Source: Escherichia phage K30 | DNA length: 40,940 bases | Reading direction: 5' to 3' (one strand) | Sequence record: NC_015719.1 | Shown here: piece after piece, positions 1 to 40,940 of the stretch | How positions within the stretch are numbered: the first letter of the stretch is position 1 | How the letters are laid out: each line of letters starts with the position of its first letter | Position numbers and translations under genes: made by a program | The notes under the pieces: model-generated | Database searches by the model: none | Told to the model about the DNA's origin: nothing | Seen by the model: only the letters and a program-made list of their open reading frames with translations

Positions 1-193
1 TCTCACAGTTTACACTTTTGGTTATCCCCCGGTACCCTCTAAGTTAGCCCAAAGTAACCATAGGCCACCCTAAACCTTCGGTTTAACCTTAGGTTGGACT
101 GTTGGGAACCTTGGGTGATACTATATGTAGTGGTTAGTGTGACCTTGGGATACTATATGTTGATCTCTCTGTATCCCTATCTGTTGGTACTCT

Positions 194-224
194 CTAAGTA
201 TCCACTAAGTATCCACTAAGTAAC
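194..224. repeat. Tandem 11-bp repeat CTAAGTATCCA (about 2.7 copies)
   Basis: Read directly: ctaagtatcca ctaagtatcca ctaagtaac; position is analogous to the short repeats next to the T7 left terminal repeat. Confidence 0.7.
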
Positions 225-334
225 AACCTGAGGTTAGACCTGAGGACATCCATCGACACTATACCTAAGGTTAACTATGCGTCTAACGTTTAGTTACTAT
301 AAGGCTATTGGTGACCATTGTCCATACACCAATC

Positions 335-357
335 AATTAGGTCACACTATAGGGAGA
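335..357 (+). promoter_or_regulatory. Phage RNAP promoter (phiOL-like), aattaggtcacactatagggaga
   Basis: Matches the 23-bp consensus shared by the other 12 promoters; +1 G at about 352. Confidence 0.8.
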
Positions 358-459
358 CACTTAAAGTATTACTAAGAGACCTTTACCATAAAACTACTAT
401 CACTATAGGTCTAACTATAAGACTAACTATAGGTCTAACTAAAAGTTTAACTTTAGGTG

Positions 460-2052: not shown

Positions 2053-3057
2053 ATGAACTACACCGACATGCAAGCACGCTTAGACGTCATCCGCAACCTG
2101 CCAATCTGTGAACTTGACAAGCGCCAGCCGCTGCTGGTATCACTCATCGCAAACATCGTGAACTACGAGACGTCTGACGGTGACGATACGGACAGCAATT
2201 GGGGTCTTGAAAGTCAGGGCTACTGGCAAACCTTGAAGATTAAGGCTAAAGACGCTGGGTTTAACCTGCTGGGTAATGGCCACTTCAGCGCGGCGTTTAA
2301 GCACGAGCTACTGCCGGGCAAGGTCATTAAGGTTGGCTTTAAGAAAGAAGACTCAGGGGCCGCCTATGTGGCTTTCTGTCGGATGCACCAAGGTCGGGTA
2401 GGGATACCTAATGTCTATCACGTAGCGCGTCACGCTGGCTGCTATACGGTGGTACTTGATGAGCTGGAACCATGTCAGCGCCGTGATAACCATAAGCACG
2501 ACCATTATGCAGACCTTGCGTATTACTTTGTCGAGGGAGAACCAGACCCAGAGGTATACGCGAAGGATGATCTACCATTCATCGAGACGTGCCAGATGAT
2601 TCGTAAGTTCTTCTACGGGATTGCATCATTTGATATGCATAGTGGCAACATTATGTTTACACCGGATGGTAAACCAGTGATTACCGACCCAGTGTCATTC
2701 TCAGCGGACCGGGACCGCAAGCCTTTCTCGCTGGAGCCTGAGGGCCTGCTCGCAGAGATTGAGCAGATAGCGCACGACAAGATGATTGAACGCTGTAAGC
2801 GTAACAAGGCCAAACGTGACCGTGACAGTACGCTGTGTCGTGCCCGTAGAGCAAACAACAAGGCCCGTAGAAACCGCGCTAAAGCAGCCGCGCGATGGCG
2901 GAAGGAGCGGGAAAAGCGTGTTGCCGAGCGCTTTAAGTATGACCTTGCGAAAATCGAGGAGCGCGTTCTAGCGTGGCAAGTGGGACCCGGCCTAGCAATA
3001 CAACAAGGCAAGCCGCTACCAATCGACAACTACCTTCAAGGTAGACTTATGGGTTAA
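2053..3057 (+). CDS. 0.7: Serine/threonine protein kinase, host shut-off (T7 gene 0.7)
   Basis: 334 aa; recalled strong similarity to T7 gp0.7 (LPICELDKRQ, AGF..LGNGHFSAA, KVGFKKEDSGAAY.AFCRM, FDMHSGNIMF); synteny. Confidence 0.9.
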   Translation: MNYTDMQARLDVIRNLPICELDKRQPLLVSLIANIVNYETSDGDDTDSNWGLESQGYWQTLKIKAKDAGFNLLGNGHFSAAFKHELLPGKVIKVGFKKEDSGAAYVAFCRMHQGRVGIPNVYHVARHAGCYTVVLDELEPCQRRDNHKHDHYADLAYYFVEGEPDPEVYAKDDLPFIETCQMIRKFFYGIASFDMHSGNIMFTPDGKPVITDPVSFSADRDRKPFSLEPEGLLAEIEQIAHDKMIERCKRNKAKRDRDSTLCRARRANNKARRNRAKAAARWRKEREKRVAERFKYDLAKIEERVLAWQVGPGLAIQQGKPLPIDNYLQGRLMG

Positions 3058-3070
3058 CGAGGTGTATCTT

Positions 3071-3094
3071 AGGTGCCTCCACCGCGAGGCACCT
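3071..3094 (+). promoter_or_regulatory. Perfect 9-bp stem-loop upstream of gene 1 (possible R1-type processing site)
   Basis: aggtgcctc / caccgc / gaggcacct read directly; no T-run follows, so not a classic intrinsic terminator. Confidence 0.35.
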
Positions 3095-3144
3095 ATAGAT
3101 AAACTTTATTCACCGCCAGTTTACTGGCACCAAAGAGGCACACA

Positions 3145-5865
3145 ATGAACGCATTAAACATTGCACGTAATGACTTCTCAGAGATTGAACTGGCCGCTAT
3201 TCCGTACAACATCCTCAGTGAGCACTACGGGGACAGACTGGCACGTGAGCAGTTAGCACTGGAGCACGAAGCGTACGAGCTGGGCGAACAGCGTTTCCTG
3301 AAGATGTTAGAACGTCAGGTTAAAGCTGGTGAGTTCGCCGACAACGTGGCCGCTAAGCCGCTGGTCTTAACGCTGCACCCACAGCTAACCAAACGCATCG
3401 ACGATTGGAAGGAGGAGCAAGCAAACGCTCGCGGCAAGAAGCCTCGCGCATACTACCCGATTAAGCACGGCGTTGCCTCAGAGTTAGCCCTTAGCATGGG
3501 AGCTGAGGTACTCAATGAGAAGCGTGGAGTGTCCAGTGAGGCTATCGCACTGCTGACCATTAAGGTCGTCTTAGGGACGCTCACAGACGCCTCTAAAGCC
3601 ACCATCCAGCAAGTATCCTCGCAGTTAGGCAAGGCGCTTGAGGATGAGGCCCGCTTCGGTCGTATCCGTGAGCAGGAGGCTTCCTACTTCAAGAAGAACG
3701 TAGCGGACCAGCTGGACAAGCGTGTGGGTCACGTGTACAAGAAGGCTTTCATGCAGGTCGTCGAGGCCGATATGATTTCCAAGGGGATGCTAGGCGGTGA
3801 CAACTGGTCCAGCTGGAAGACCGACGAGCAGATGCACGTTGGGACCAAGCTACTGGAACTACTCATTGAGGGCACTGGTCTGGTGGAAATGACCAAGAAC
3901 AAGATGGCCGATGGCTCTGACGATGTGACCAGCATGCAAATGGTCCAGCTGGCTCCAGCCTTCGTGGAACTACTGAGTAAACGAGCGGGAGCACTCGCAG
4001 GAATCAGCCCAATGTACCAACCGTGCGTAGTCCCTCCGAAACCTTGGGTTGAAACCGTGGGAGGTGGCTACTGGTCTGTAGGTCGTCGTCCGCTGGCACT
4101 GGTGCGTACCCACTCCAAGAAGGCACTGCGTCGCTACGAAGACGTTCACATGCCAGAGGTATACAAAGCGGTCAACCTCGCGCAGAACACACCGTGGAAG
4201 GTAAACAAGAAGGTACTGGCGGTAGTCAATGAGATTATCAACTGGAAGCACTGCCCGGTGGGTGACGTCCCAGCGATTGAACGCGAAGAGCTACCACCAC
4301 GCCCGGACGATATCGACACCAACGAGGTGGCACGTAAGGCTTGGCGCAAGGAGGCCGCAGCGGTTTACCGTAAGGACAAGGCCCGCCAGTCTCGCCGCTT
4401 GTCGATGGAGTTCATGGTCGCACAGGCCAACAAGTTCGCTAACCACAAGGCCATCTGGTTCCCGTACAACATGGACTGGCGTGGTCGTGTGTACGCTGTG
4501 AGCATGTTTAACCCACAGGGTAATGATATGACCAAGGGTATGCTGACATTGGCCAAAGGTAAGCCAATCGGTCTCGATGGGTTCTACTGGCTGAAGATTC
4601 ATGGTGCAAACTGTGCAGGCGTCGATAAGGTTCCTTTCCCTGAGCGCATCAAGTTCATCGAAGAGAACGAGGCCAACATTCTAGCGAGTGCAGCCGACCC
4701 GCTGAATAACACTTGGTGGACCCAGCAAGATTCACCGTTCTGTTTCTTAGCGTTCTGCTTTGAGTATGCAGGGGTAAAACATCACGGCCTGAATTATAAC
4801 TGTTCGCTGCCACTGGCGTTCGATGGGTCCTGCTCTGGGATTCAGCACTTCAGCGCAATGCTCCGCGATTCTATCGGTGGTCGTGCTGTTAACCTGCTGC
4901 CTTCTGATACCGTGCAGGATATCTACAAGATTGTTGCCGACAAGGTTAATGAGGTACTCCACCAGCACGTTATCAACGGGTCTCAGACGGTGGTCGAGCA
5001 GATTGCTGATAAGGAGACTGGTGAGTTCCGCGAGAAGGTAATGTTGGGCGAGTCTGTACTAGCTGCTCAATGGTTACAATACGGGGTGACCCGCAAGGTG
5101 ACCAAGCGTTCTGTCATGACGTTGGCGTATGGTTCCAAAGAGTTTGGCTTCCGCCAGCAAGTTCTGGAAGATACCATTCAGCCCGCTATCGACAATGGTG
5201 AGGGCCTGATGTTTACGCACCCTAACCAAGCGGCTGGCTACATGGCTAAGCTGATTTGGGACGCTGTGACCGTGACCGTAGTAGCCGCTGTCGAGGCGAT
5301 GAACTGGCTGAAGTCTGCTGCTAAACTGCTTGCCGCTGAAGTCAAGGATAAGAAGACCAAGGAGGTACTTCGTAAGCGTTGCGCAATCCACTGGGTAACA
5401 CCAGATGGCTTCCCAGTGTGGCAAGAGTACCGCAAGCAGAATCAAGCGCGCCTGAAGCTGGTCTTCCTAGGTCAAGCCAACGTTAAGATGACGTACAACA
5501 CCGGGAAGGACTCAGAGATTGACGCTCACAAGCAGGAATCTGGTATCGCTCCTAACTTTGTACACTCGCAAGACGGTAGTCACCTTCGCATGACCGTAGT
5601 ACATGCCAACGAGGTCTACGGGATTGACTCCTTCGCACTCATCCATGACTCCTTCGGGACCATTCCGGCAGACGCTGGGAATCTCTTTAAGGCAGTCCGT
5701 GAGACGATGGTAAAGACCTACGAGGACAACGATGTAATCGCTGACTTCTACAACCAGTTCGCTGACCAGCTGCACGAGTCTCAGCTTGACAAGATGCCAG
5801 CGGTACCAGCCAAAGGTGACCTTAATCTGCGTGATATCTTAGAGTCTGACTTTGCGTTTGCGTAA
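3145..5865 (+). CDS. 1: Single-subunit DNA-directed RNA polymerase (T7 gene 1)
   Basis: 906 aa; colinear recalled similarity to T7 RNAP across the whole length; C-terminal ...ILESDFAFA. Confidence 0.98.
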   Translation: MNALNIARNDFSEIELAAIPYNILSEHYGDRLAREQLALEHEAYELGEQRFLKMLERQVKAGEFADNVAAKPLVLTLHPQLTKRIDDWKEEQANARGKKPRAYYPIKHGVASELALSMGAEVLNEKRGVSSEAIALLTIKVVLGTLTDASKATIQQVSSQLGKALEDEARFGRIREQEASYFKKNVADQLDKRVGHVYKKAFMQVVEADMISKGMLGGDNWSSWKTDEQMHVGTKLLELLIEGTGLVEMTKNKMADGSDDVTSMQMVQLAPAFVELLSKRAGALAGISPMYQPCVVPPKPWVETVGGGYWSVGRRPLALVRTHSKKALRRYEDVHMPEVYKAVNLAQNTPWKVNKKVLAVVNEIINWKHCPVGDVPAIEREELPPRPDDIDTNEVARKAWRKEAAAVYRKDKARQSRRLSMEFMVAQANKFANHKAIWFPYNMDWRGRVYAVSMFNPQGNDMTKGMLTLAKGKPIGLDGFYWLKIHGANCAGVDKVPFPERIKFIEENEANILASAADPLNNTWWTQQDSPFCFLAFCFEYAGVKHHGLNYNCSLPLAFDGSCSGIQHFSAMLRDSIGGRAVNLLPSDTVQDIYKIVADKVNEVLHQHVINGSQTVVEQIADKETGEFREKVMLGESVLAAQWLQYGVTRKVTKRSVMTLAYGSKEFGFRQQVLEDTIQPAIDNGEGLMFTHPNQAAGYMAKLIWDAVTVTVVAAVEAMNWLKSAAKLLAAEVKDKKTKEVLRKRCAIHWVTPDGFPVWQEYRKQNQARLKLVFLGQANVKMTYNTGKDSEIDAHKQESGIAPNFVHSQDGSHLRMTVVHANEVYGIDSFALIHDSFGTIPADAGNLFKAVRETMVKTYEDNDVIADFYNQFADQLHESQLDKMPAVPAKGDLNLRDILESDFAFA

Positions 5866-5875
5866 GGTCTCAGGC

Positions 5876-5898
5876 AATTAGGGCACACTATAGGGAAC
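5876..5898 (+). promoter_or_regulatory. Phage RNAP promoter (phi1.1A-like), aattagggcacactatagggaac
   Basis: Consensus match; followed by AT-rich repeats of acttaaag. Confidence 0.85.
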
Positions 5899-5963
5899 CT
5901 TCGAACGACCGAGGTTTCCATTACTTAAAGTCTTAACTTAAAGAATACTTAAAGAGGCACACC

Positions 5964-6524
5964 ATGACTTACTCAATCGTTGTAACCATCTTGTTAATCA
6001 TCACCACAACGCTCTTCATTGTGAGTCTTCGCAATGCAATACGCAACGAAGAACTATTGGGGCGTTTGATTCAAGAAGCAAACTCCCAGCTTAGTGATGC
6101 GTCGACCAAGGTTCTTCGACTGACGGACAAGGCTAACTTCCTTGGTAAACAGGTGCGTTACTTAGAGAGTGAACTTGAGGAAGAAAAGCAGAAGGTGCTA
6201 GATGTGTACGAACTACGGAAGCGACAGCGGGACCGCATGAAGTTCCTGAGCAAGTCTCTTAAGGAAGCCCAAGATGAGCTGATGATGGTCTCTGACCTGA
6301 TTCACGTTAAGTTCACCGCTGTGTTACCTGATGGCACTCGCTCTAAGACTCTCTTTAAGTTAGGACTTGGACCTTGTGGTCTACACGTTAAGTCCCTTCG
6401 CTGGACTGAGCTAGACGACCGCTATCTGATAGACCAGCTGTGCACCAACGGCGAGCGCAAGCAGTTCACTTACTTTAAGAGCGAAGTAGTAGGGCGTATC
6501 GAGTTCCGCCACGGTAAGGTTTAA
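5964..6524 (+). CDS. Hypothetical membrane-anchored coiled-coil protein (gene 1.05 position)
   Basis: 186 aa; N-terminal hydrophobic helix, heptad-like charged stretch, about 80-aa C-terminal domain; AAAGAGG RBS; sits between two phage promoters. Confidence 0.6.
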   Translation: MTYSIVVTILLIITTTLFIVSLRNAIRNEELLGRLIQEANSQLSDASTKVLRLTDKANFLGKQVRYLESELEEEKQKVLDVYELRKRQRDRMKFLSKSLKEAQDELMMVSDLIHVKFTAVLPDGTRSKTLFKLGLGPCGLHVKSLRWTELDDRYLIDQLCTNGERKQFTYFKSEVVGRIEFRHGKV

Positions 6525-6545
6525 TTAGGGCACACTATCAGGAAC
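6523..6545 (+). promoter_or_regulatory. Variant phage promoter (phi1.1B-like), aattagggcacactatCAggaac
   Basis: Upstream half matches the consensus exactly; the initiation region is TATCAGG instead of TATAGGG. Confidence 0.55.
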
Positions 6546-6547
6546 AT

Positions 6548-6578
6548 ACTCAAGGTCATCGTTCGGTGGCCTTTATGA
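6548..6578 (+). promoter_or_regulatory. RNase III-type processing hairpin (R1.1-like)
   Basis: actcaaggtcatc-gttc-ggtggcctttatga: 9-bp stem with G:U pairs; same conserved flanks as T7 R1.1 (recalled). Confidence 0.6.
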
Positions 6579-6609
6579 ATGTCCCTAACAACCACTCAGG
6601 AGTAACACC

Positions 6610-6786
6610 ATGTATCAGAACACAATCAACTTTGAGCGCAAACGTGAACGTCAGCAGACTGAGGGTTATATCCCTAAGGGCCGCAAGTTGAACAAGACGA
6701 AGCGCGGTGGTGGCATGAAGGGTTCCTTCCGTAATGCGAAGGGCGACAGTGTTGTCAACCAAGAGAAATACTTCGTAGGAGCATAA
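6610..6786 (+). CDS. 1.1: Gene 1.1-like small basic protein
   Basis: 58 aa; shares KGRKLNKTKR with T7 gp1.1 (recalled); GGAG RBS; not in the ORF track because under 60 aa. Confidence 0.6.
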   Translation: MYQNTINFERKRERQQTEGYIPKGRKLNKTKRGGGMKGSFRNAKGDSVVNQEKYFVGA

Positions 6787-6789
6787 CAA

Positions 6790-7056
6790 ATGGCTGAGCA
6801 AACTAAATGGCTGTTCGATGGTAGCACTTCACAGTGGTCACGATTGGGCGCTACCGAACGAAGACTGACGGATGAGACGGGACTACATGTAATCATGACG
6901 TATATCCATTTCAACCGCACAGTTTTACTCTCCGTGTATGAACCAAGACCAGATTATGACGAGGTACTCATAGAGAAATCCTTCAGTCGCTGGTCGATTG
7001 ACTCAGCGTCAGACTGGCTGGCAAAACTCACAGCCGACTACTCAAGTTGGAAGTAA
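6790..7056 (+). CDS. 1.2: Gene 1.2-like protein (candidate host dGTPase inhibitor)
   Basis: 88 aa; position between 1.1 and ligase; weak recalled similarity at the C-terminus (..DW..K..WK). Confidence 0.55.
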   Translation: MAEQTKWLFDGSTSQWSRLGATERRLTDETGLHVIMTYIHFNRTVLLSVYEPRPDYDEVLIEKSFSRWSIDSASDWLAKLTADYSSWK

Positions 7057-7077
7057 TTAGGACACACTATAGGCAGA
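7055..7077 (+). promoter_or_regulatory. Phage RNAP promoter (phi1.3-like), aattaggacacactataggcaga
   Basis: Consensus match; overlaps the gene 1.2 stop. Confidence 0.8.
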
Positions 7078-7110
7078 CTCAAGGTCATCGGATTCCGGTG
7101 GCCTTTATGA
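7077..7110 (+). promoter_or_regulatory. RNase III-type processing hairpin (R1.3-like)
   Basis: actcaaggtcatcgg-att-ccggtggcctttatga; about 11-bp stem. Confidence 0.6.
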
Positions 7111-7156
7111 TTGCTTATTGCACACTAAATAAATACTACACTTCGGAGACATCATC

Positions 7157-8209
7157 ATGATGAACATTACGACTAATCCATATAAAGCCGTTTCATACGT
7201 ACGCTCTGCTATCGAGAAGGCGCTGGAGACTTCCGGTTACCTCATCGCGGACACTAAGCACGATGGTGTACGCGGGAACATTTGCGTAGACAACACGGCC
7301 AACGCAGCGTGGCTAAGCCGGGTCTCAAAGACCATTCCGGCCCTTGAGCACCTCAACGGTTTCGACCAGCGCTGGCAGCAGTTACTGAAAGATGACCGCT
7401 GGATTTTCCCGGATGGCTTCATGCTTGATGGTGAACTCATGGTCAAAGGTGTGGACTTCAACACTGGGTCTGGCCTGCTGCGTACCAAGTGGCTAAAGGC
7501 TACCAACTACGGGTTCGACTTCGGAGGTGTTCCACCACTGAAGGGTAGCAAGGTAGATTTCTGCCTCGACCCTAAGCAACTAAAAGTTGTTCTGTACGAT
7601 ATCATTCCGCTTGACATTATCGAATCCGGTGATGACTACAACGTGATGACCCTCCTCCGCCTTGAGCACGTCAAGGTAGCCTTACCAGTCCTGCAAGACC
7701 ACTTCCCTGAAGTTGAGTGGTGCCTCTCTGAGTCCCATGAAGTTTACGACATGGACGAACTCGATGCGCTGTACCGACAGAAACGAGGAGAAGGTCATGA
7801 AGGTCTGGTGGTTAAGGACCCTCAGGGTATATATAAGCGCGGTAAGAAGTCCGGCTGGTGGAAACTGAAGCCAGAGAATGAGGCTGACGGTGTAGTAGTT
7901 GGTCTCGTGTGGGGCACTCCCGGTAAGGCCAACGAGGGTAAAGTGATTGGCTTCGAGGTTCTCCTTGAGAGTGGTAGAGTGGTTAACGCTACGAACATCT
8001 CACAGGAACTTATGGATGAGTTCACCTCTCGCGTCAAGGAATACACTACCGAGTGTAATGCTAATGAAGCTGGCTGCTGGTATATGAACCCTTACGAGGG
8101 CTGGGCGTGCCAAATCAAGTACATGGAGGAGACTCCAGACGGTTCTCTGCGTCACCCATCGTTCGATAAATGGCGTGGTAGCGAGGCTGACCCAACCATC
8201 AAGATGTAA
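7157..8209 (+). CDS. 1.3: ATP-dependent DNA ligase (T7 gene 1.3)
   Basis: 350 aa; recalled strong similarity to T7 ligase including the adenylation motif region (IKYDGVRG in T7, TKHDGVRG here) and C-terminal ETPDGSLRHPSF. Confidence 0.95.
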   Translation: MMNITTNPYKAVSYVRSAIEKALETSGYLIADTKHDGVRGNICVDNTANAAWLSRVSKTIPALEHLNGFDQRWQQLLKDDRWIFPDGFMLDGELMVKGVDFNTGSGLLRTKWLKATNYGFDFGGVPPLKGSKVDFCLDPKQLKVVLYDIIPLDIIESGDDYNVMTLLRLEHVKVALPVLQDHFPEVEWCLSESHEVYDMDELDALYRQKRGEGHEGLVVKDPQGIYKRGKKSGWWKLKPENEADGVVVGLVWGTPGKANEGKVIGFEVLLESGRVVNATNISQELMDEFTSRVKEYTTECNANEAGCWYMNPYEGWACQIKYMEETPDGSLRHPSFDKWRGSEADPTIKM

Positions 8210-31800: not shown

Positions 31801-32858
31801 TCATTGGCACCATCAAGTTTGGTACTCAGGAGCTGTCAGCCCGTTCTCCTTGGACCAAGATGCTTAATGGTACGGCTAACTACATTCTGGACACTGCCCG
31901 TCAGGGTGTGCTAGGTGATGTGGCTGGTGCTGCCCTCGGTGGCAAGGGTTCCAAGTTTGGCAAAGAGAACTTCCTTAAAGCTGCCTCTATTAGTCCTGAG
32001 CAGTGGAAGGGAATCAAGCAGCTTTTTGTCGACCATGCGACTCGTGATGCTAACGGTCAGTTCTCCATCAAGGACAAGAAGGCTTTCAGTCAGGACCCGA
32101 GGGCGATGGACCTGTGGCGTCTTGCTGATAAGGTTGCCGATGAAACCATGCTGAGACCACACAAGGTATCCCAGCAGGATTCCAAGGCATACGGTGCTGG
32201 TGTTAAGATGGCTATGCAGTTCAAGAACTTCACCATCAAATCACTAAACGCCAAGTTCATTCGGTCCTTCTATGAGGGTTACAAGAACAACCGTGCTATC
32301 GACATGGCGTTGACCCACGTGTTGTCTCTTGGTATCGCCGGGACTTACTTTGCGATGCAGGCCCACGTGAAGGCTTACGGTCTCCAAGAGTCTCAGCGTA
32401 AGGACTACCTGAAGAAAGCCTTGAACCCGACCATGCTGGGATACGCAGCGTTGACTCGAAGTTCCCACACTGGTGCCCCGCTGTCCATCGTCTCGATGAT
32501 TGCTGGTGCCGCTGGGTTCCAAGACGCCAACATGCTGCGTTCCACCATCTTACCGAAGGAGGAACAGTTCCAGAAGAAAGACGGAGCGTCCAAAGGTCGC
32601 GCTGAGTCGAGCAATCTTGCGGGTAACTTGGGGTCTCAGGTTCCAGCGCTAGGTTACGTAGGGAACGTTATTGCGACCGCTAAGAACGCCTACGGTGTTG
32701 CTACAGCTCCCAACAAGCCGACCGAGCGTGACTACATGACTGGCCTGATGAACTCCACCAAAGAGCTTGTGCCTAATGACCCACTGACCCAACAGCTCAT
32801 CATGAAAATTTATGAGGCTAACGGGGTCACCATCAAGCAGCAGCCGAAGCCTAACTAA
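28893..32858 (+). CDS. 16: Internal virion protein D with N-terminal lytic transglycosylase domain (T7 gene 16)
   Basis: 1321 aa; N-terminus carries a soluble-lytic-transglycosylase-like block (GPKGIMQFTRNTARAMG...ALAYNQGEG); synteny. Confidence 0.95.
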   Translation: MSYDKSKPSDYDGIFQKAADSHGVSYDLLRKLSFNESSFKPKAVSKTGPKGIMQFTRNTARAMGLNVTDSDDDGRYNPELAIDAGAKLLASLVKKYNGDELKAALAYNQGEGPAGAPQLQAYDNGDFGSISEEGRNYMRKLLDVAKSPRSGALEEFGGITPKGKGIPAEDAFKGISNAGKVGTELPESHGFDVEGVAQEAPNTPYAKDFWEKTGTTIEEYNSRSTFFGFSDAASAELQNSTLGIAFRAARADDGYDVFKDTMTPTRWNSYAPSKEDLQKLRDSGLPPSYYGVVTGGDGENWDSLIKLAKDNFEADQRAAEAGTGAKLAAGIVGAGVDPLSYVPLVGVAGKGLKVVNKALRVGAQAGALNVASEGIRTSIAGGEAHYADAALGGLLFGAGMSALSDAVAAGIRKARGVDSVNEFAGPALRMEARETAINTGGHDTSTLPPENFSFEQSHRGVPFADHPTEEGAVVLANGSILSDTNPLNPRTQRDFAEIDPERAAPGIKLGGFTEIGLKTLGSKDAGVRAIAQDLVRSPTGMQSGSSGKFGATASDIHERLHATDQRMYNQLYDAVDRAMKDPEFSVGEQKMSRRAIRQEVYKRAALAIERPELQADLTKGEREVMDLLKEHFDTKRELMEQPGIFGNADAVSVFPGSRHKGTYVPNVYDRGAKELMTQKLGGPEGLQQAIAQSWLTSYRVRPEVKARVDEYLMELNGYKSVDQVTPEVVQKHAMDKAYGISHTEDFTASSVIDDNITGLVGIENNSFLEARNMFDSDIPVTLPDGSTFSVNDLRDFDMSRIIPAYDRRVNGDISIMGGSGKTTKQLKDEIMALDKRAERKGQLKGEVEALKDTVKILTGRARRNNDTAFETAMRSLNDLAFFAKNFYMGPQNLTEIAGMLAKGNVKAMLHGIPTLRDLATRTSPVSGSELRELHGALFGKELDQLIRPGREDIVQRIREASDTSGAMSSVIGTIKFGTQELSARSPWTKMLNGTANYILDTARQGVLGDVAGAALGGKGSKFGKENFLKAASISPEQWKGIKQLFVDHATRDANGQFSIKDKKAFSQDPRAMDLWRLADKVADETMLRPHKVSQQDSKAYGAGVKMAMQFKNFTIKSLNAKFIRSFYEGYKNNRAIDMALTHVLSLGIAGTYFAMQAHVKAYGLQESQRKDYLKKALNPTMLGYAALTRSSHTGAPLSIVSMIAGAAGFQDANMLRSTILPKEEQFQKKDGASKGRAESSNLAGNLGSQVPALGYVGNVIATAKNAYGVATAPNKPTERDYMTGLMNSTKELVPNDPLTQQLIMKIYEANGVTIKQQPKPN

Positions 32859-32879
32859 TTAGGACACACTATAGGGAGA
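32857..32879 (+). promoter_or_regulatory. Phage RNAP promoter (phi17-like), aattaggacacactatagggaga, with 5' leader hairpin
   Basis: Consensus match; transcript begins gggagacc-gatt-ggtttccc. Confidence 0.85.
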
Positions 32880-32919
32880 CCGATTGGTTTCCCTCCTCAT
32901 TCAACTAAAGGAGGTCACA

Positions 32920-35631
32920 ATGGACCAAGACATTAAAACAGTCATTCAGTACCCAGTAGGGGCCACTGAGTTCGACATCCCGTTCGACTACCTGTCCCGC
33001 AAGTTTGTCCGTGTGTCGCTGGTGACAGGCGACAACCGAAGACTGCTGAGTAACATCACTGAGTACCGCTACGTGTCTAAGACCAGAGTGAAGCTCCTTG
33101 TGGAGACCGCTGGGTTCGACCGTGTGGAAATCCGTAGGTTCACCTCGGCATCTGAGCGAATCGTTGACTTCAGTGATGGCTCGGTTCTCCGTGCGGCTGA
33201 CCTTAACGTGTCTCAGATACAGTCGGCACATATCGCAGAGGAAGCACGTGATGCGGCACTTATGGCAATGCCTCAGGATGATGTCGGTAACCTTGATGCA
33301 CGTAACCGTAGAATCGTGCGGCTGGCACCGGGCATTGATAGTACAGATGCAATCAATAAGAACCAACTGGACACCACCTTAGGTGAGGCTGGTGGTATTC
33401 TGTCACAAGTCAAGGATACCCAGAAGGACATTCAGAACTACATTCAGAAGTTCGGCGATGACACCGCTATGGTTCGTGGAGTAAATTGGGTGTATAACGG
33501 TGGGTCTGCCATTGGTGGAGAGACCTCCTTTATCATCGACAAGTCAGCGCCAGTGTTCGCCGTACCATACATTGAGGTAAACGGAAGCCGTCAGTTCCGA
33601 GACTGGCAGTACGAGTATGACCCTGCAACCAAGCGTGTCACTCTGGTTAAACCTCTGGAGGCTGGAGACTTTGTTGTATGCCTCACTACCGAGAATAAGT
33701 TACCTTTAGAAGACCTGCTGGCTAGTACAGGAGGTGCCGATTCCATTGGTAAGGCTGGAGGTGGTACAGTTCAGGATGGTCTGGATGCAACGATACATGG
33801 TACTGATGTCCACCGAGACACTGTGACTCCCGGTAAACTGGACACACTCCTTGTGTACAATGGGACCAACGCTGGGCGCGACCTACGTGGCCATGAGTTC
33901 GTAATGCCCCACGGCACATTCTCCGCGACTCGCATCTTGAGAACTCGTGGTATCTCAGCGGCTGAATCTAAGTACACTGGGTTCACTTGGCGCGGACAGG
34001 GTAGTTCGTTCACCAAGTTGGTCCACCCTGCGACTGGTGGTCAGGGTGATATTGCATTCATGGACTACCTGAAGGATGTTACGATGTCTGGGTTCATGAT
34101 GGACAACACCGCGCTAGGTCAGGGGACTTCCAATCAGGATACCCGTAACGGTCAGTTCTGGATTCGACATTCGGTTGACTCCTACTTCGACGACCTGCGC
34201 TTCGCTGGTGCTGACGCCCTTACGTTCTGTCTGGACCACTGTAAGAACATCTACTCGACAAACCTCAAGGTAGACTATCAGCTGCGCTATCCGACTGGTA
34301 CAGGTAAGTCCCCGCTAATAGTTGGTGACTACTCGGAGCAGTGCATGTTCATCGGCGGCTACGTTAAGACCGTGTCACCTGACGGAACCATAAAGTATGC
34401 TGGTGACCTCGCAGATAACGACCAAGCGGATGATACCAAATGGGCGTTCATTAACCTGTACGGATTGACGTTTGAACAGAAGCCTAACTCTAACGCCTGT
34501 ATGTGGCAAGAAGGGGAGGGTGCACCATCCAACGCTCACTTCATCGGTATGAACTACATCAACAACGGTGTAGGTCATGGTGTGTCTGAGAAAGCTGTGG
34601 GTACTGACATCGGGTCTACCTTCCGTCAGGCTCAGGTTCGTGCTGTGTGGAACCGTGCTGAGTACATCTCAATCGGCAGTCACTTCATTAACAACGATGC
34701 CAAGTATCCTGCTGGCACTGGTGGCGCAGGTACTGCGGCTGCTGGTGGTGTTCATAATGACAACGCCAAGTTCACCTCTCTGGTTGGTGACTACTTCCGT
34801 GGTAACTTCGCGGATTATACAGACTACACAGGGGCATCTGGTGTTAACCCGGAGAACTCAACCCACATCACCAACGCAAAGTTGACATCCATCATTCGTA
34901 CATCGTCCTCCAGTACCTCTCAGCATTTAGCCATTGTGAACTGCCAGTTAACTTCTGCGGGTCGTATTAGCGGCGGCGGTAACGGGAGACTCCACGTGTC
35001 CGTTGTGGCATCTCACTGCGTCGGGCCTCTGGGGCAGTTTGGTCACGGACAGTCCGAGACGTACCTTGACGTCATAAACTCTACGTTCACTGCCGCTGGT
35101 AGCACTGAGGCTATGATTACCCAGTCAGGTGTTGGTAATATCTCGTTCGCTAACTCCACGTTCCGTGATTATATCCGTGTGGTAGATGGCTCGCATACCC
35201 GTGTTACCTTCCGTAACTGTACGTTCTACACTTGTACTTTCACTGAGGACGACCGAAAAGCTCGCTACGTTAACTGCCGATTTATCTCGTGCACTGACGC
35301 TCCAGACTCCTTCGGCCTCAACTTTGCGGCAGACTCTCTGGACCGCCCTAGCTCACTTCGAGTTAACGTAACGTTAACTGCTGGCGGCAGCTATACGTTC
35401 CCGGCTTGGGTACTTCAGGGTCGTGGTGCTTACTTCATCAACGTGGGTGGTAATGGTGCCAACCTTCCTGCCTGCGCTGGTATCATTGGTAAGAGTAGCG
35501 CGACTGGTAGTGGTGTATGGACCCCTCAGTGGGAAAGCACTCCTAGTAGTATTGTTGTATCTTGGCCATCCAACGGATACATTACTGTTACGGCCACAAC
35601 TGCTGGCAACTACACAATCGGCGTCCACTAA
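32920..35631 (+). CDS. 17: Tail fibre / tailspike with T7 gp17-like N-terminal anchor and beta-helix (depolymerase-like) C-terminal region
   Basis: N-terminal 150 aa resemble T7 gp17 ([48 protein letters not shown]); C-terminus has repetitive N.TF / NCTFYTCTF segments typical of parallel beta-helix enzymes; start at ATG 32920 with AAGGAGGT RBS. Confidence 0.9.
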
Positions 35632-35644
35632 TAAGGAGAACCAC

Positions 35645-37198
35645 ATGTTAGACAAATTGAATCAGCCGAAAGGCTCAACCATTGGTGTGCTCAAGGATGG
35701 GCGCACCACCCAAGAGGCCATTGACGAACTCACTAATGATGTAACAGGAAGTATCACAACTACCCGGTATGCATCGAGTGCTTCCCAGGCGCTGTTCCCG
35801 AAGCTCATTGACAAGATGACTGCGTATCGGCATGGTGTCTCTGGATTCCAAGACAAGTTTCGAATCTACGGGTATGGCTCCTCTGTAGGCAATGGGGCAA
35901 CGATTGGTGGAAACTCCTCGCCAAATACCCCAGTAGCAAAATTCTTTGAGCACTTCCAGAGGACGGTCAACAAGGCTGGAATCTACCCATTCGAATACTC
36001 GAACAAGTCGGTGGATGGTTCCAACATCAACGATTTCCTCAACCGGGAGTGGCCTGCGACTGTCGCCACTGGTGTCTTCCCGGACCTAGCGGTTTTCGCT
36101 TACGGTATGAATGACTTCCCCTCGGCGCAGTATAATGCTGGGATGACCTTCGGGGCCAACGGTTTCAAACAGAGACTTCGCAATGCAATACAGAAGGTTC
36201 GAGACGCTGGCGGAGATGTAGTTCTCCTGACCACCCCACACCCAAACATTGAGGAATACTCGTGGGAACTCCCGTCAAGTATAGACATGGTGTGGCCCCA
36301 GTTTGCTGCCAAACCCGTGGCTGGTGACGTTCTTATTCCACCAGTGTCACAATCAAATGTGTCCTTCGACTTCATGGGCAAACGCATCACTCAGGGTGTT
36401 CGCTTCCTGAGAGGTAACGATGCGATGCGTGAGGTTGCTGTGGAGATGGGTTGCGTCTTGATTGACGTTGAGAAATACTGGTTCGAGGCCGTTGGTAAGT
36501 ATGGGAACGTACTACTGTTCGACCGCGTGCCAGCAATGCAGACAGTGCACCCTAACCTACTGGGTCACCAGCAGTCGTACTGGCGGGCAATCGAAGAGTT
36601 CTTCAACAATGTGGATTCCTCTGGATGGATTGCTCCAGACGCTAAGTTGAACCAGACGCTGGATGTTGGCGGTAACGCCCTGAACCCCGCGAAGATGGAA
36701 GCTGATGTCGACCTTCAGGCCAACGGCATCCGTCAGCGTGCATTCGTGCGCCGGGATAAGTCTGGCCGTGTCATGGAGGAGCTGACGCAGGACAGCAGGG
36801 TCAAGCGCACATCCTACACGGTGTCAGACCCTACAGTATCAGCTCCGGGATATAGCCTAACATGGGACGAGTGGTTTACCCGCACCAAGGGATTATTCAC
36901 CAGTGGGGAGACTTTGGGCATCCCTGTAAATAACCGCACCGAAGGTCGACTATTAGTCACAGCGTGGATTTCAGGCCAGACTGGCTGGACCCAGCTTGAG
37001 GACTACTTAGTCTCTAACCGTGAGGGTGTTGTATTGGTCTCCAAGATTGGCTCTTTAGATAATACTCCACCGGCTGGTGGTACAGGGACCAACGGTCAGC
37101 GCCTGTTCACCGTGTCCACCTCTGCGAACAATGTCGTGGTTAATATCCTATCGGATAACGCCACTGTGAAGTTCAAACTGGACACCTTTGGGGCATAA
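35645..37198 (+). CDS. Second receptor-binding protein candidate with SGNH/GDSL-hydrolase-like motifs (putative esterase tailspike)
   Basis: 517 aa from ATG 35645 with TAAGGAGAA RBS; motifs YGYGSS, YGMNDF, VHPNLLGH in the order expected for an SGNH fold; sits between gene 17 and the holin. Confidence 0.6.
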   Translation: MLDKLNQPKGSTIGVLKDGRTTQEAIDELTNDVTGSITTTRYASSASQALFPKLIDKMTAYRHGVSGFQDKFRIYGYGSSVGNGATIGGNSSPNTPVAKFFEHFQRTVNKAGIYPFEYSNKSVDGSNINDFLNREWPATVATGVFPDLAVFAYGMNDFPSAQYNAGMTFGANGFKQRLRNAIQKVRDAGGDVVLLTTPHPNIEEYSWELPSSIDMVWPQFAAKPVAGDVLIPPVSQSNVSFDFMGKRITQGVRFLRGNDAMREVAVEMGCVLIDVEKYWFEAVGKYGNVLLFDRVPAMQTVHPNLLGHQQSYWRAIEEFFNNVDSSGWIAPDAKLNQTLDVGGNALNPAKMEADVDLQANGIRQRAFVRRDKSGRVMEELTQDSRVKRTSYTVSDPTVSAPGYSLTWDEWFTRTKGLFTSGETLGIPVNNRTEGRLLVTAWISGQTGWTQLEDYLVSNREGVVLVSKIGSLDNTPPAGGTGTNGQRLFTVSTSANNVVVNILSDNATVKFKLDTFGA

Positions 37199-37207
37199 GG
37201 AGGTACC

Positions 37208-37411
37208 ATGTTGTCCCTAGACTTCAACAACGAAGTTATCAAGGCGGCTCCCATTGCGGGGGTCGCTGGGGCTGACGGTGTAGCGAGGCTCTTCTGGGGC
37301 CTCTCACTCAACGAGTGGTTCTACGTCGCGGCAATCGCCTACACAGTGGTTCAGATTGGTGCCAAGGTAGTCGACAAAATCATTGACTGGAAGAAAGCAA
37401 ATAAGGAGTAA
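37208..37411 (+). CDS. 17.5: Class II holin (T7 gene 17.5)
   Basis: 67 aa; recalled near-identity to T7 gp17.5 (MLSLDFNNE.IKAAPI, LSLNEWFYVAAIAYTVVQIGAKVVDK.IDWKKANKE). Confidence 0.9.
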   Translation: MLSLDFNNEVIKAAPIAGVAGADGVARLFWGLSLNEWFYVAAIAYTVVQIGAKVVDKIIDWKKANKE

Positions 37412-37414
37412 CAT

Positions 37415-37672
37415 ATGGACCTGATTAAGTTCCTCGAAATGTTAGACACTGAGATGGCTCAGCAGATGCTCATGGACCTGAAGAATCCAGAGAAGCGGAC
37501 CCCTCAGTTGTACAACGCCATTGGTAAACTACTGGAGCGTCACAAGTTCCAAATCTCTAAGCTAACCCCTGACGTTAACATCTTGGGTGGACTGGCTGAG
37601 GGTCTGGAGGCTTACAACTCCAAGGTGGGTGCTGATGGTCTTACAGACGACGATACGTTCACCCTACAGTGA
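37415..37672 (+). CDS. 18: Terminase small subunit (T7 gene 18)
   Basis: 85 aa; recalled similarity to T7 gp18 (FLEMLDT.MAQ.ML.DL, PQLYNAI.KLL.RHKFQI.KL.PDV.ILGGLA, GLTDDD..TLQ). Confidence 0.9.
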   Translation: MDLIKFLEMLDTEMAQQMLMDLKNPEKRTPQLYNAIGKLLERHKFQISKLTPDVNILGGLAEGLEAYNSKVGADGLTDDDTFTLQ

Positions 37673-37675
37673 TAT

Positions 37676-37709
37676 ACTCAAGGTACTACTATATGTAGTG
37701 CCTTTATGA
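37676..37709 (+). promoter_or_regulatory. RNase III-type processing hairpin (R18.5-like)
   Basis: actcaaggtactac-tatat-gtagtgcctttatga; about 10-bp stem. Confidence 0.6.
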
Positions 37710-37768: not shown

Positions 37769-38215
37769 ATGCTGGGGTTCACAAAGAGAATCGTCCCGTA
37801 TCTTGTGGCTATCATGGTGTTTGCCTTCGGGTGGCACTTGGGTTCGCAATCTACGGACGCTAAATGGAAGGAGGTAGTACAGAATGAGTACGTTTCGAAG
37901 CAAACAGCTAGAGTTCAAACTCAAGCAGCACTTGATGAGATATCGGCTAAGTACCAAGCAGACCTTGAGGGGCTGGAGGGCAGCACTGATAGGATTATTG
38001 CTGATTTGCGTAGCGACAATAAGCGGCTGCGCGTTAGAGTCAAACCTACCAGTGTCGCCGCAGGACCAGACGGTCGATGCCTCGTTGATGGTTCCGTCGA
38101 ACTACACGAAGCAACTGCTCGAAGTCTTATCGCAATAACCCAGAAGGCCGACCTCAAAGAGAAGGCCCTACAGGACACTATTCGTAAGCTACAGCGGAAA
38201 GGAGGTGAACATTGA
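37769..38215 (+). CDS. 18.5: Rz-like i-spanin (T7 gene 18.5)
   Basis: 148 aa; N-terminal TM segment; recalled similarity to T7 gp18.5 ([43 protein letters not shown]). Confidence 0.9.
37884..38138 (+). CDS. 18.7: Rz1-like o-spanin lipoprotein, embedded in gene 18.5 (T7 gene 18.7)
   Basis: 84 aa in the +1 frame inside 18.5; lipobox ...[11 protein letters not shown]; recalled similarity to T7 gp18.7. Confidence 0.8.
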   Translation: MSTFRSKQLEFKLKQHLMRYRLSTKQTLRGWRAALIGLLLICVATISGCALESNLPVSPQDQTVDASLMVPSNYTKQLLEVLSQ

Positions 38216-40540: not shown

Positions 40541-40940
40541 GTGTATATCTCACAGTTTACACTTTTGGTTATCCCCCGGTACCCTCTAAGTTAGCCCAAA
40601 GTAACCATAGGCCACCCTAAACCTTCGGTTTAACCTTAGGTTGGACTGTTGGGAACCTTGGGTGATACTATATGTAGTGGTTAGTGTGACCTTGGGATAC
40701 TATATGTTGATCTCTCTGTATCCCTATCTGTTGGTACTCTCTAAGTATCCACTAAGTATCCACTAAGTAACAACCTGAGGTTAGACCTGAGGACATCCAT
40801 CGACACTATACCTAAGGTTAACTATGCGTCTAACGTTTAGTTACTATAAGGCTATTGGTGACCATTGTCCATACACCAATCAATTAGGTCACACTATAGG
40901 GAGACACTTAAAGTATTACTAAGAGACCTTTACCATAAAA
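40541..40940. repeat. Right copy of 400-bp direct repeat (includes a second copy of the phiOL-like promoter at about 40875-40897)
   Basis: Identical to positions 1-400 by direct reading. Confidence 0.8.

What the first reader, a model, noticed from the sequence alone, without database searches (positions are those of the whole stretch)
35645..37198. Extra gene after the tail fibre encodes a putative SGNH-esterase receptor-binding protein
T7 has nothing between gene 17 and the holin. Here a 517-aa ORF with a strong RBS carries SGNH/GDSL-like motifs in the expected order (YGYGSS, GMND, VHPNLLGH) after a short N-terminal segment that could anchor it to the virion. This is a candidate second tailspike that deacetylates capsule or O-antigen rather than cleaving the glycan backbone, and may set host range.
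Basis: partly seen in the sequence, partly recalled or inferred. Interest (0 to 1): 0.75.

Follow-up and report, generated by a model that had tools for sequence, protein, structure and literature searches.

The report
Esterase-type second tailspike of Klebsiella podophage
The extra gene after the tail-fibre gene of this T7-like Klebsiella phage is a real, conserved second tailspike that carries an esterase (SGNH) domain in place of the usual sugar-cutting domain; this kind of protein is already catalogued, so the find is sound but ordinary.

Summary
ORF 35645-37198 (+) encodes 517 aa, starts 6 nt after an AAGGAG ribosome-binding site, and sits between the gene-17-like tail fibre and the T7-type holin.

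- It matches Pfam Lipase_GDSL_2 above the curated cut-off.
- Ser80, Gly125, Asn156 and His302 are invariant in 74 homologues.
- Residues 1-29 match, at 24 of 29 positions, the docking peptide of KP32 gp38, which is experimentally required for virion incorporation. The upstream fibre carries the matching branching domain.
- The C-terminal 160 aa form a phage gp9/tailspike-type beta-sandwich.
- In other phages and prophages the same esterase module sits behind T7, P22, tail-collar or TSP1/Gp66 anchors.

The window is a Przondovirus (KP32-like). Its nearest relatives, KpV289, KpV766, YMR1 and PQ7254, carry the same protein at 87-88% identity. SGNH tailspikes in Przondovirus are already catalogued.

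Esterase activity, substrate, presence in the virion and effect on host range remain untested. One deviation: the acid of the catalytic triad is Gln or Glu, never Asp.

Verdict: new member of a known kind, low-to-moderate interest.

The parts
32920..35631 (+). RBP1: gene-17-like tail fibre/tailspike (903 aa from the ATG at 32920; the ORF listing starts it at a TTG at 32884). It has a T7-type tail anchor, a branching domain and a non-conserved distal part.
   Evidence: PF03906 E 5.7e-38 on residues 15-166 of the TTG-started ORF. PHROG 24786 aligns from residue 13, which is the ATG. Residues 1-321 match Kp9 type I tail fibre 7xy1 at E 3.7e-147. 65% identity to KP32 gp37 over the N-terminal ~300 aa.
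33478..33696 (+). Branching domain of RBP1 (residues ~187-259), the predicted docking site for RBP2.
   Evidence: Residues 187-259 match tailspike assembly domains in PDB: 7rfo/7rej at E ~1e-13, and 9d80 and 9d83. Arg224, which a published model of KP32 gp37 predicts contacts the peptide, is conserved; Val227 is Arg here (PMC13352976).
35633..35638 (+). Ribosome-binding site AAGGAG, 6 nt upstream of the ATG. There are only 13 nt between the gene 17 stop and the RBP2 start.
   Evidence: Read directly. No promoter or terminator signal above shuffled expectation in 32700-37700, so co-transcription with gene 17 is inferred.
35645..37198 (+). RBP2: 517-aa SGNH-esterase tailspike (the finding).
35645..35734 (+). 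N-terminal docking ('conserved') peptide, residues 1-30.
   Evidence: Matches KP32 gp38 (6tku) at E 2.3e-07 and 7vul at E 3.7e-07, in residues 1-44 and 1-34 only. 24 of 29 positions identical to KP32 gp38. The first 80-94 nt are 88-95% identical in about 170 Przondovirus records whose downstream sequence is unrelated. Low pLDDT in the monomer model, as expected for a segment that folds on a partner.
35828..36619 (+). SGNH hydrolase (GDSL-like esterase) domain, residues ~62-325, with an insertion of about 50 residues (200-250) between the core strands.
35882..35884 (+). Codon of Ser80, the predicted nucleophile (block I, G-S-S in place of G-D-S).
   Evidence: Ser in 74 of 74 homologues.
36548..36550 (+). 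Codon of His302, the predicted general base (block V, Q-T-V-H-P-N). Gln299 occupies the usual Asp position.
   Evidence: His in 74 of 74 homologues. Position 299 is Gln in 50, Glu in 23 and Ser in 1. It aligns with the D-x-x-H-P-N of 5jd3 and 2o14.
36707..37195 (+). C-terminal beta-sandwich domain, residues ~355-517, of the phage gp9/tailspike C-terminal type.
37208..37411 (+). T7-type class II holin, the downstream boundary of the RBP cassette.
   Evidence: PF10746 E 6.5e-33; PHROG 920.

Best explanation
The gene encodes the second receptor-binding protein (RBP2) of a branched dual-tailspike system in a KP32-like Klebsiella podophage (Przondovirus).

Proposed mechanism:
1. RBP1, the gene-17 homologue, attaches to the tail through its T7-type N-terminal domain. 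It presents a T4 gp10-like branching domain at residues ~187-259.
2. The first ~30 residues of RBP2 dock on that domain, so each fibre position carries both proteins.
3. Distal to a short helical neck, RBP2 carries an SGNH esterase domain: Ser80 nucleophile, His302 base, Gly125 and Asn156 as oxyanion hole, and Gln299 where other SGNH enzymes have Asp.
4. A gp9-like C-terminal beta-sandwich follows. It probably helps trimerisation and/or glycan binding.
5. On contact with the cell the enzyme most likely removes O-acetyl groups from a surface polysaccharide, either capsule or O-antigen, without cutting the backbone. This is what G7C gp63.1 does. The result would be to bind and remodel the glycan layer so the phage can reach the cell surface.

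Shown here: gene structure, fold, conserved catalytic residues, docking peptide, branching domain, and modular reuse of the esterase on other virion anchors.

Inferred: trimeric state, presence in the virion, esterase activity, substrate, and contribution to host range.
For: - Gene: a tightly packed ORF with an RBS, under strong purifying selection (dN/dS 0.04 against KpV289).
- Catalytic residues: Ser80, Gly125, Asn156 and His302 are invariant in 74 homologues ranging from 27 to 95% identity.
- Anchor: residues 1-29 match KP32 gp38 at 24 of 29 positions.
- Docking site: RBP1 has the branching domain. Deleting either the peptide or the branching domain abolishes RBP2 function in KP32 (PMC13352976).
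- Modularity: homologues carry the same esterase plus C-terminal module behind PF03906 (T7 tail), PF09008 (P22 head-binding), PF12571 (tail-collar fibre) and PF18668 (TSP1/Gp66 N-terminal) anchors. They occur in Schitoviridae (P184), in ~145-kb phage genomes (AV124, VLCpiM5b) and in KL01.
- C-terminal domain: it resembles phage gp9 and tailspike C-terminal domains.
- Synteny: same position and order as KP32 gp37-gp38-holin and KpV289 orf45-46-47.
- Precedent: two Klebsiella prophage SGNH RBPs hydrolyse pNPA (PMC13123978).
Against: - No biochemical, virion-proteome or host-range data exist for this protein or for any member of its subfamily that I could find.
- The two assayed Klebsiella prophage esterases have other architectures: a tail fibre with a split GDSL domain, and a SASA-family enzyme. 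Neither this protein's VHPNLLGH nor its YGMNDF motif occurs anywhere in that paper's supplementary files as held (the listed sequences are cut).
- The triad acid is Gln299, not Asp, so catalytic efficiency cannot be assumed.
- No sequence-level similarity to G7C gp63.1 was detected, even with a profile at E<=1. That relationship is at fold level only.
- The structure is a monomer AF2 model. The trimer and the docking on RBP1 were not modelled.
- Przondoviruses with SGNH RBPs are reported to have a narrow host range (bioRxiv 10.64898/2026.05.12.724579). This does not support a simple 'second host type' role.
Confidence: 0.8

Rival explanations
1. RBP2 is virion-attached, but the SGNH domain acts only as a glycan-binding module with no catalytic activity (an adhesin built on an esterase scaffold).
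For: The canonical Asp of the D-x-x-H block is replaced by Gln299 here and in 50 of 74 homologues. Latka et al. 2019 rated the KpV289/KpV766 orthologues as having 'lower probability' of enzymatic (depolymerase) activity.
Against: Ser80, Gly125, Asn156 and His302 are invariant across 74 sequences down to 27% identity. That is hard to explain without catalysis. From general knowledge, not tested here: some SGNH carbohydrate esterases work with a Ser-His dyad. The position is Gln or Glu, both able to orient His.
Confidence: 0.08
2. The protein is a soluble, non-virion enzyme released at lysis. It could be a peptidoglycan O-acetylesterase helping the endolysin, or a free capsule-modifying enzyme. 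Its position next to the holin would fit this.
Against: The N-terminus is the docking peptide shown to mediate virion incorporation in KP32. The locus is the RBP2 slot of the genus. Homologues are fused to four different virion anchor domains. The C-terminal domain is of tailspike/gp9 type. I noted no signal sequence or membrane anchor when reading the sequence, but ran no signal-peptide predictor.
Confidence: 0.05
3. RBP2 is an active virion esterase, but its target is the LPS O-antigen or another non-capsular acetylated glycan, reached after RBP1 has tunnelled through the capsule. It does not act on the capsule.
For: The only esterase tailspike for which I saw a defined native substrate, G7C gp63.1, acts on O-antigen. 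The same RBP2 (87-88% identity) is paired with three unrelated RBP1 distal parts, in the window/KpV289/KpV766, in YMR1 and in PQ7254. This fits a target that varies less than the K-type. The 2026 preprint also raises O-antigen as a possible target.
Against: Nothing in the sequence distinguishes capsule from O-antigen. Prophage SGNH RBPs are statistically associated with K-loci. This is a variant of the best explanation rather than an exclusive alternative.
Confidence: 0.3

Closest known systems
Second RBP of Klebsiella phages KpV289 (orf46), KpV766, YMR1 and PQ7254 (511 aa, annotated 'tail fiber' or 'hypothetical')
   Same: Orthologues at 87-88% amino-acid identity over the full length. Same locus between gene 17 and the holin, and same docking peptide.
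   Different: 517 versus 511 aa. Nucleotide identity is only 80-82%, and the megablast alignment stops at nt 1389 of 1554. YMR1 and PQ7254 pair it with different RBP1 distal domains. I found no biochemical characterisation of any of these proteins.
KP32 gp38 (RBP2, K21 capsule depolymerase; PDB 6tku) and the KP32 'group A' anchor-branch system
   Same: Same gene slot. The N-terminal docking peptide matches at 24 of 29 positions. The partner RBP1 has a T7 anchor plus a branching domain (PMC6872550; PMC13352976).
   Different: Beyond about residue 35 there is no similarity. KP32 gp38 is a capsule depolymerase with no esterase match, whereas this protein has an SGNH esterase domain.
E. coli phage G7C gp63.1 esterase tailspike (PDB 4qnl)
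   Different: No detectable sequence similarity. N4-like phage, 847 aa, different anchoring and flanking domains. 15% identity over the aligned core.
Tail spikes of Pectobacterium Studiervirinae phages Q19, PP47 and PP81 (T7-like N-domain fused to an SGNH domain)
   Same: T7-relatives that use an SGNH esterase as the tail-spike enzyme, encoded between internal virion protein D and the holin (PMC7693777).
   Different: There the esterase is fused directly to the T7 anchor as the only RBP. Here it is a separate second protein that docks through a peptide.
Klebsiella prophage SGNH RBPs 174_38-KL55 and 164_08-KL2 (PLoS Biol 2026)
   Same: Klebsiella phage RBPs with SGNH-type domains. They were experimentally shown to hydrolyse pNPA and to lack depolymerase activity.
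   Different: Long tail fibres from temperate phages. One has a split GDSL domain and the other a SASA (PF03629) domain. This protein's motifs are not found in that paper's supplement.

Membership tests
SGNH/GDSL hydrolase superfamily | Block I nucleophilic Ser in a G-x-S motif near the N-terminus of the domain | tested here: met
   G78-S79-S80; Ser80 in 74 of 74 homologues.
SGNH/GDSL hydrolase superfamily | Block II Gly and block III Asn (G-x-N-D) forming the oxyanion hole | tested here: met
   Gly125 in 74 of 74. G154-M155-N156-D157, with Asn156 in 74 of 74. These align with blocks II and III of 5jd3, 2o14, 7br2 and TesA.
SGNH/GDSL hydrolase superfamily | Block V His in D-x-x-H | tested here: met
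   His302 in 74 of 74, within V-H-P-N-L-L-G-H. It aligns with the H-P-N of 5jd3 and 2o14.
SGNH/GDSL hydrolase superfamily | Asp three residues before the catalytic His (triad acid) | tested here: not met
   Position 299 is Gln (50), Glu (23) or Ser (1) across the family, never Asp. The feature is not universal in the superfamily, so this is a variant and does not exclude membership.
SGNH/GDSL hydrolase superfamily | Three-layer alpha/beta/alpha fold with a parallel sheet | tested here: met
SGNH/GDSL hydrolase superfamily | Profile match above the curated threshold | tested here: met
   PF13472 at 41.5 bits against a cut-off of 32.9.
KP32-type branched dual-RBP system (Latka 'group A') | RBP1 with a T7 gp17-type anchor | tested here: met
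   PF03906 E 5.7e-38.
KP32-type branched dual-RBP system (Latka 'group A') | RBP1 carries a T4 gp10-like branching domain | tested here: met
   Residues 187-259 match tailspike assembly domains 7rfo/7rej, 9d80 and 9d83. 65% identity to KP32 gp37 over the region, with Arg224 conserved.
KP32-type branched dual-RBP system (Latka 'group A') | RBP2 begins with the conserved ~29-aa peptide and lacks an anchor domain | tested here: met
   24 of 29 positions identical to KP32 gp38. E 2.3e-07 to 6tku, restricted to residues 1-44.
KP32-type branched dual-RBP system (Latka 'group A') | RBP2 gene lies directly between RBP1 and the holin | tested here: met
KP32-type branched dual-RBP system (Latka 'group A') | RBP2 is physically present on the virion through RBP1 | not testable with these tools
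   Needs virion mass spectrometry, cryo-EM or binding assays.
Esterase (deacetylating) tailspikes, type G7C gp63.1 | SGNH catalytic domain within a virion RBP | tested here: met
Esterase (deacetylating) tailspikes, type G7C gp63.1 | Sequence homology to gp63.1 | tested here: not met
   No hit to 4qnl by phmmer at E<=10 or by a profile at E<=1. The resemblance is at fold level only, so this is filed as 'works like' and not as a family member.
Esterase (deacetylating) tailspikes, type G7C gp63.1 | Removes O-acetyl groups from the host polysaccharide without depolymerisation | not testable with these tools
   Requires an enzyme assay and NMR of the treated polysaccharide.

The most novel reading that the evidence does not exclude
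The esterase may not be a second host-range key. It could instead be a K-type-independent 'capsule remodeller' that works together with whichever depolymerase RBP1 the phage carries. For example, it could strip non-stoichiometric O-acetyl groups that would otherwise block RBP1 or later steps, or act on a conserved sub-capsular glycan.

Two observations fit this. Nearly the same RBP2 (87-88% identity) is paired with three unrelated RBP1 distal domains. Przondoviruses with SGNH RBPs are reported to keep a narrow host range.

If true, it would be a cooperative two-enzyme tailspike complex rather than two independent specificities. The family-wide Ser-His-Gln/Glu active site would be a distinct catalytic variant.
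Probability: 0.25. Interest if true: 0.5.

Novelty: new member of a known kind. Interest (0 to 1): 0.25.

Why it matters
Klebsiella phage host range is usually predicted from beta-helix depolymerases. Esterase-type RBPs are a second, poorly characterised class that such predictors miss. No substrate is defined for any lytic Klebsiella phage esterase that I could find.

This protein is a compact, well-conserved example with a defined docking peptide. It would be a convenient model for asking what these enzymes deacetylate and whether they help or replace depolymerases.

It is also directly usable in the peptide-docking phage-engineering scheme already shown for KP32. The architecture and the idea itself are already in the literature.

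Tried and rejected
- Sequence link to G7C gp63.1 or any solved esterase tailspike: none by phmmer or profile search. Only the fold search links them.
- Link to the two assayed Klebsiella prophage esterases: their sequences are truncated in the supplement, their domain types differ, and this protein's motifs are absent. Homology could not be established.
- KpV289 virion proteome paper (Arch Virol 2016): not held. No direct evidence of virion presence for the orthologue was obtained.
- Own promoter or terminator for the gene: consensus scans gave no more hits than shuffled sequence. No compositional anomaly suggests recent foreign origin.
- Substrate guess through K-type: KpV289 and KpV766 are cited as carrying KL20-specific depolymerases, and K20 is listed among K-types with O-acetyl signals. 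However, the KL20 activity is attributed to RBP1, and RBP2 also occurs with other RBP1s. No substrate assignment is justified.
- Active-site geometry in the model: coordinates are not exposed to scripts, so Ser-His-Gln distances could not be measured.
- The longer 591-aa reading of the ORF from GTG 35423: rejected. It overlaps gene 17 in another frame, has no homologue support, and PHROG and the orthologues start at the ATG.

Full report
**Observation.** It runs from an ATG at 35645 to a TAA at 37196-37198, giving 517 aa. The upstream gene ends at 35631. AAGGAG lies at 35633-35638, 6 nt before the ATG. Nine bases after the stop begins a 67-aa T7-family holin (PF10746, E 6.5e-33). The three motifs are present in the stated order: YGYGSS at residue 75, GMND at 154 and VHPNLLGH at 301. 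The ORF listing extends the frame upstream to a GTG at 35423, but that extension overlaps gene 17 and no homologue supports it. PHROG 18703 and the KpV289 orthologue both start at the ATG. Against the KpV289 orthologue the gene has pN 0.074 and pS 0.69, so dN/dS is about 0.04. It is a real gene under strong constraint.

**What the window is.** The window is a Klebsiella Przondovirus, a KP32-like T7 relative. The first 25 kb are 90-95% identical to many Klebsiella phages, with VLCpiA3d the best match. The RBP cassette is closest to KpV289 and KpV766, at 84-86% nucleotide identity over 96% of 32884-37198. In this genus a second gene between gene 17 and the holin is the rule. 177 phage records match the ORF, but about 170 of them match only its first 80-94 nt, at 88-95% identity.

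**The enzymatic domain.**
- Pfam Lipase_GDSL_2 matches residues 105-309 at 41.5 bits, above the 32.9-bit cut-off.
- An AlphaFold2 model built on 74 homologues has mean pLDDT 84.6, and 85-96 across residues ~62-325.
- Foldseek agrees, with hits to Axe2, rhamnogalacturonan acetylesterase and the acetyl-mannan esterase CEX.
- In the alignment of 74 homologues (27-95% identity), Ser80, Gly125, Asn156 and His302 are invariant. These are the four residues that name the SGNH family. Profile alignments to solved enzymes put them in blocks II, III and V as expected.
- One departure: the position that is Asp in the canonical D-x-x-H is Gln299 here. Across the family it is Gln (50), Glu (23) or Ser (1), and never Asp.

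**The anchor.** Residues 1-44 match only two solved proteins. These are KP32 gp38, the second RBP of phage KP32 (6tku, E 2.3e-07), and another Klebsiella phage fibre (7vul). Over residues 1-29 the identity to KP32 gp38 is 24 of 29, and similarity ends there. The upstream protein has a T7 gp17 anchor (PF03906, E 5.7e-38). It is 65% identical to KP32 gp37 over the first ~300 residues. Its residues 187-259 match tailspike assembly (branching) domains in PDB. Latka et al. modelled this anchor-branch arrangement in 2019 and listed the KpV289 and KpV766 orthologues as second RBPs with 'lower probability' of depolymerase activity (PMC6872550). [quoted passage not shown] They also showed that the peptide can carry a foreign enzyme onto the virion (PMC13352976).

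**Modular reuse.** The esterase plus C-terminal module recurs at 50-60% identity behind other virion anchors:
- the P22 head-binding domain (PF09008) in E. coli prophage tailspikes;
- the T7 tail domain (PF03906) in phage KL01 and in proteins from Klebsiella genome assemblies;
- the tail-collar fibre domain (PF12571);
- the TSP1/Gp66 N-terminal domain (PF18668).

It also occurs in the N4-like phage P184, next to a large fibre gene, and in the ~145-kb phage genomes AV124 and VLCpiM5b. This is the pattern expected of a receptor-binding enzyme. It argues against a soluble lysis enzyme.

Within Przondovirus, nearly the same RBP2 (87-88% identity) is paired with three RBP1s that share only their first ~290 residues. 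These are the 903-aa form (window, KpV289, KpV766), a 771-aa form (YMR1) and an 818-aa form (PQ7254).

**Mechanism and its status.** The best-supported reading is a virion-borne esterase tailspike. It would dock by its N-terminal peptide on the RBP1 branching domain and deacetylate a surface polysaccharide rather than cleave it.
- Shown here: gene, fold, catalytic residues, docking peptide, branching domain and modularity.
- Inferred: trimer, virion presence, activity, substrate and role in host range.
- Precedents: G7C gp63.1, an O-antigen deacetylase; Pectobacterium T7-like phages with T7-anchor/SGNH fusions (PMC7693777); and two Klebsiella prophage SGNH RBPs that hydrolyse pNPA (PMC13123978). 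The two prophage proteins have other architectures.

**Substrate.** The substrate cannot be assigned. KpV289 and KpV766 are cited as KL20-specific through their pectate-lyase depolymerase, i.e. RBP1. RBP2 travels with other RBP1s as well. A 2026 preprint notes that Przondoviruses with SGNH RBPs keep a narrow host range and leaves capsule versus O-antigen open.

**Novelty.** The kind is known. The orthologues have been in GenBank since 2015-2016 as 'tail fiber'. The dual-RBP architecture is published and experimentally supported. SGNH tailspikes in Przondovirus are catalogued. What is new is only this sequence variant (87-88% identical to the nearest phage proteins in GenBank, up to 95% to unnamed metagenome-derived proteins), together with the points documented here: the Gln/Glu triad position, the gp9-like C-terminal domain, and the pairing with three different RBP1s. 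I rate it a new member of a known kind, with interest 0.25.

Noticed in passing
window 1-393 and 40548-40940: The first 393 nt are repeated exactly at the end of the window (393 of 393 identical). This is either a direct terminal repeat of a complete linear T7-like genome or an assembly overlap. It is about twice the 179-nt terminal repeat annotated in KpV289.
   Followed up: partly
window 35645-35738: Sharp recombination boundary. About 170 Przondovirus records share the first 80-94 nt of the RBP2 gene at 88-95% identity while the rest of the gene is unrelated. This fits the docking peptide acting as a shared exchange point for RBP2 cassettes.
   Followed up: partly
window 36539-36541 (codon of Gln299): The triad acid position of the SGNH block V is Gln here. 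Across 74 homologues it is Gln (50), Glu (23) or Ser (1), and never Asp. This may be a Ser-His dyad or a Ser-His-Gln/Glu variant typical of this tailspike esterase subfamily.
   Followed up: partly
window 32884-32920: The mechanical ORF for the tail fibre starts at a TTG at 32884. PHROG and PDB homologues align from the ATG at 32920 (MDQDIKTV...), which is the likely true start (903 aa).
   Followed up: yes
window 33790-35631; loci L004 and L005: RBP1 proteins of the window, YMR1 and PQ7254 are 74-75% identical for ~290 residues and then unrelated, yet all are followed by the same esterase RBP2. So the cassette is mosaic on both sides of the RBP1 branching domain.
   Followed up: yes
window 37034-37198: The last ~165 nt of the RBP2 gene diverge from KpV289 at the nucleotide level: megablast stops at nt 1389 of 1554. 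The window protein is 6 aa longer than the 511-aa KpV289-type relatives, and alignment A4 places the difference in a Gly-rich loop of the C-terminal domain (PPAGGTGTNGQR in the window, STPGQR in one 511-aa-type relative). The loop might influence binding specificity.
   Followed up: no
window 37769-38215 and 37884-38138: A nested pair of ORFs: a 148-aa ORF at 37769-38215 in the same position as the Rz-like spanin genes annotated in KP32 and KpV289, with an 84-aa ORF in another frame inside it. This is the usual T7-type spanin (18.5/18.7) arrangement.
   Followed up: no
locus L002 (Klebsiella phage P184, Schitoviridae) 2969-7446: In this N4-like phage the esterase homologue (599 aa, 60% identity) directly follows an 854-aa fibre gene. 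The two-RBP layout is reminiscent of G7C gp63.1/gp66, so the same esterase module serves branched RBP systems in unrelated podophage families.
   Followed up: partly
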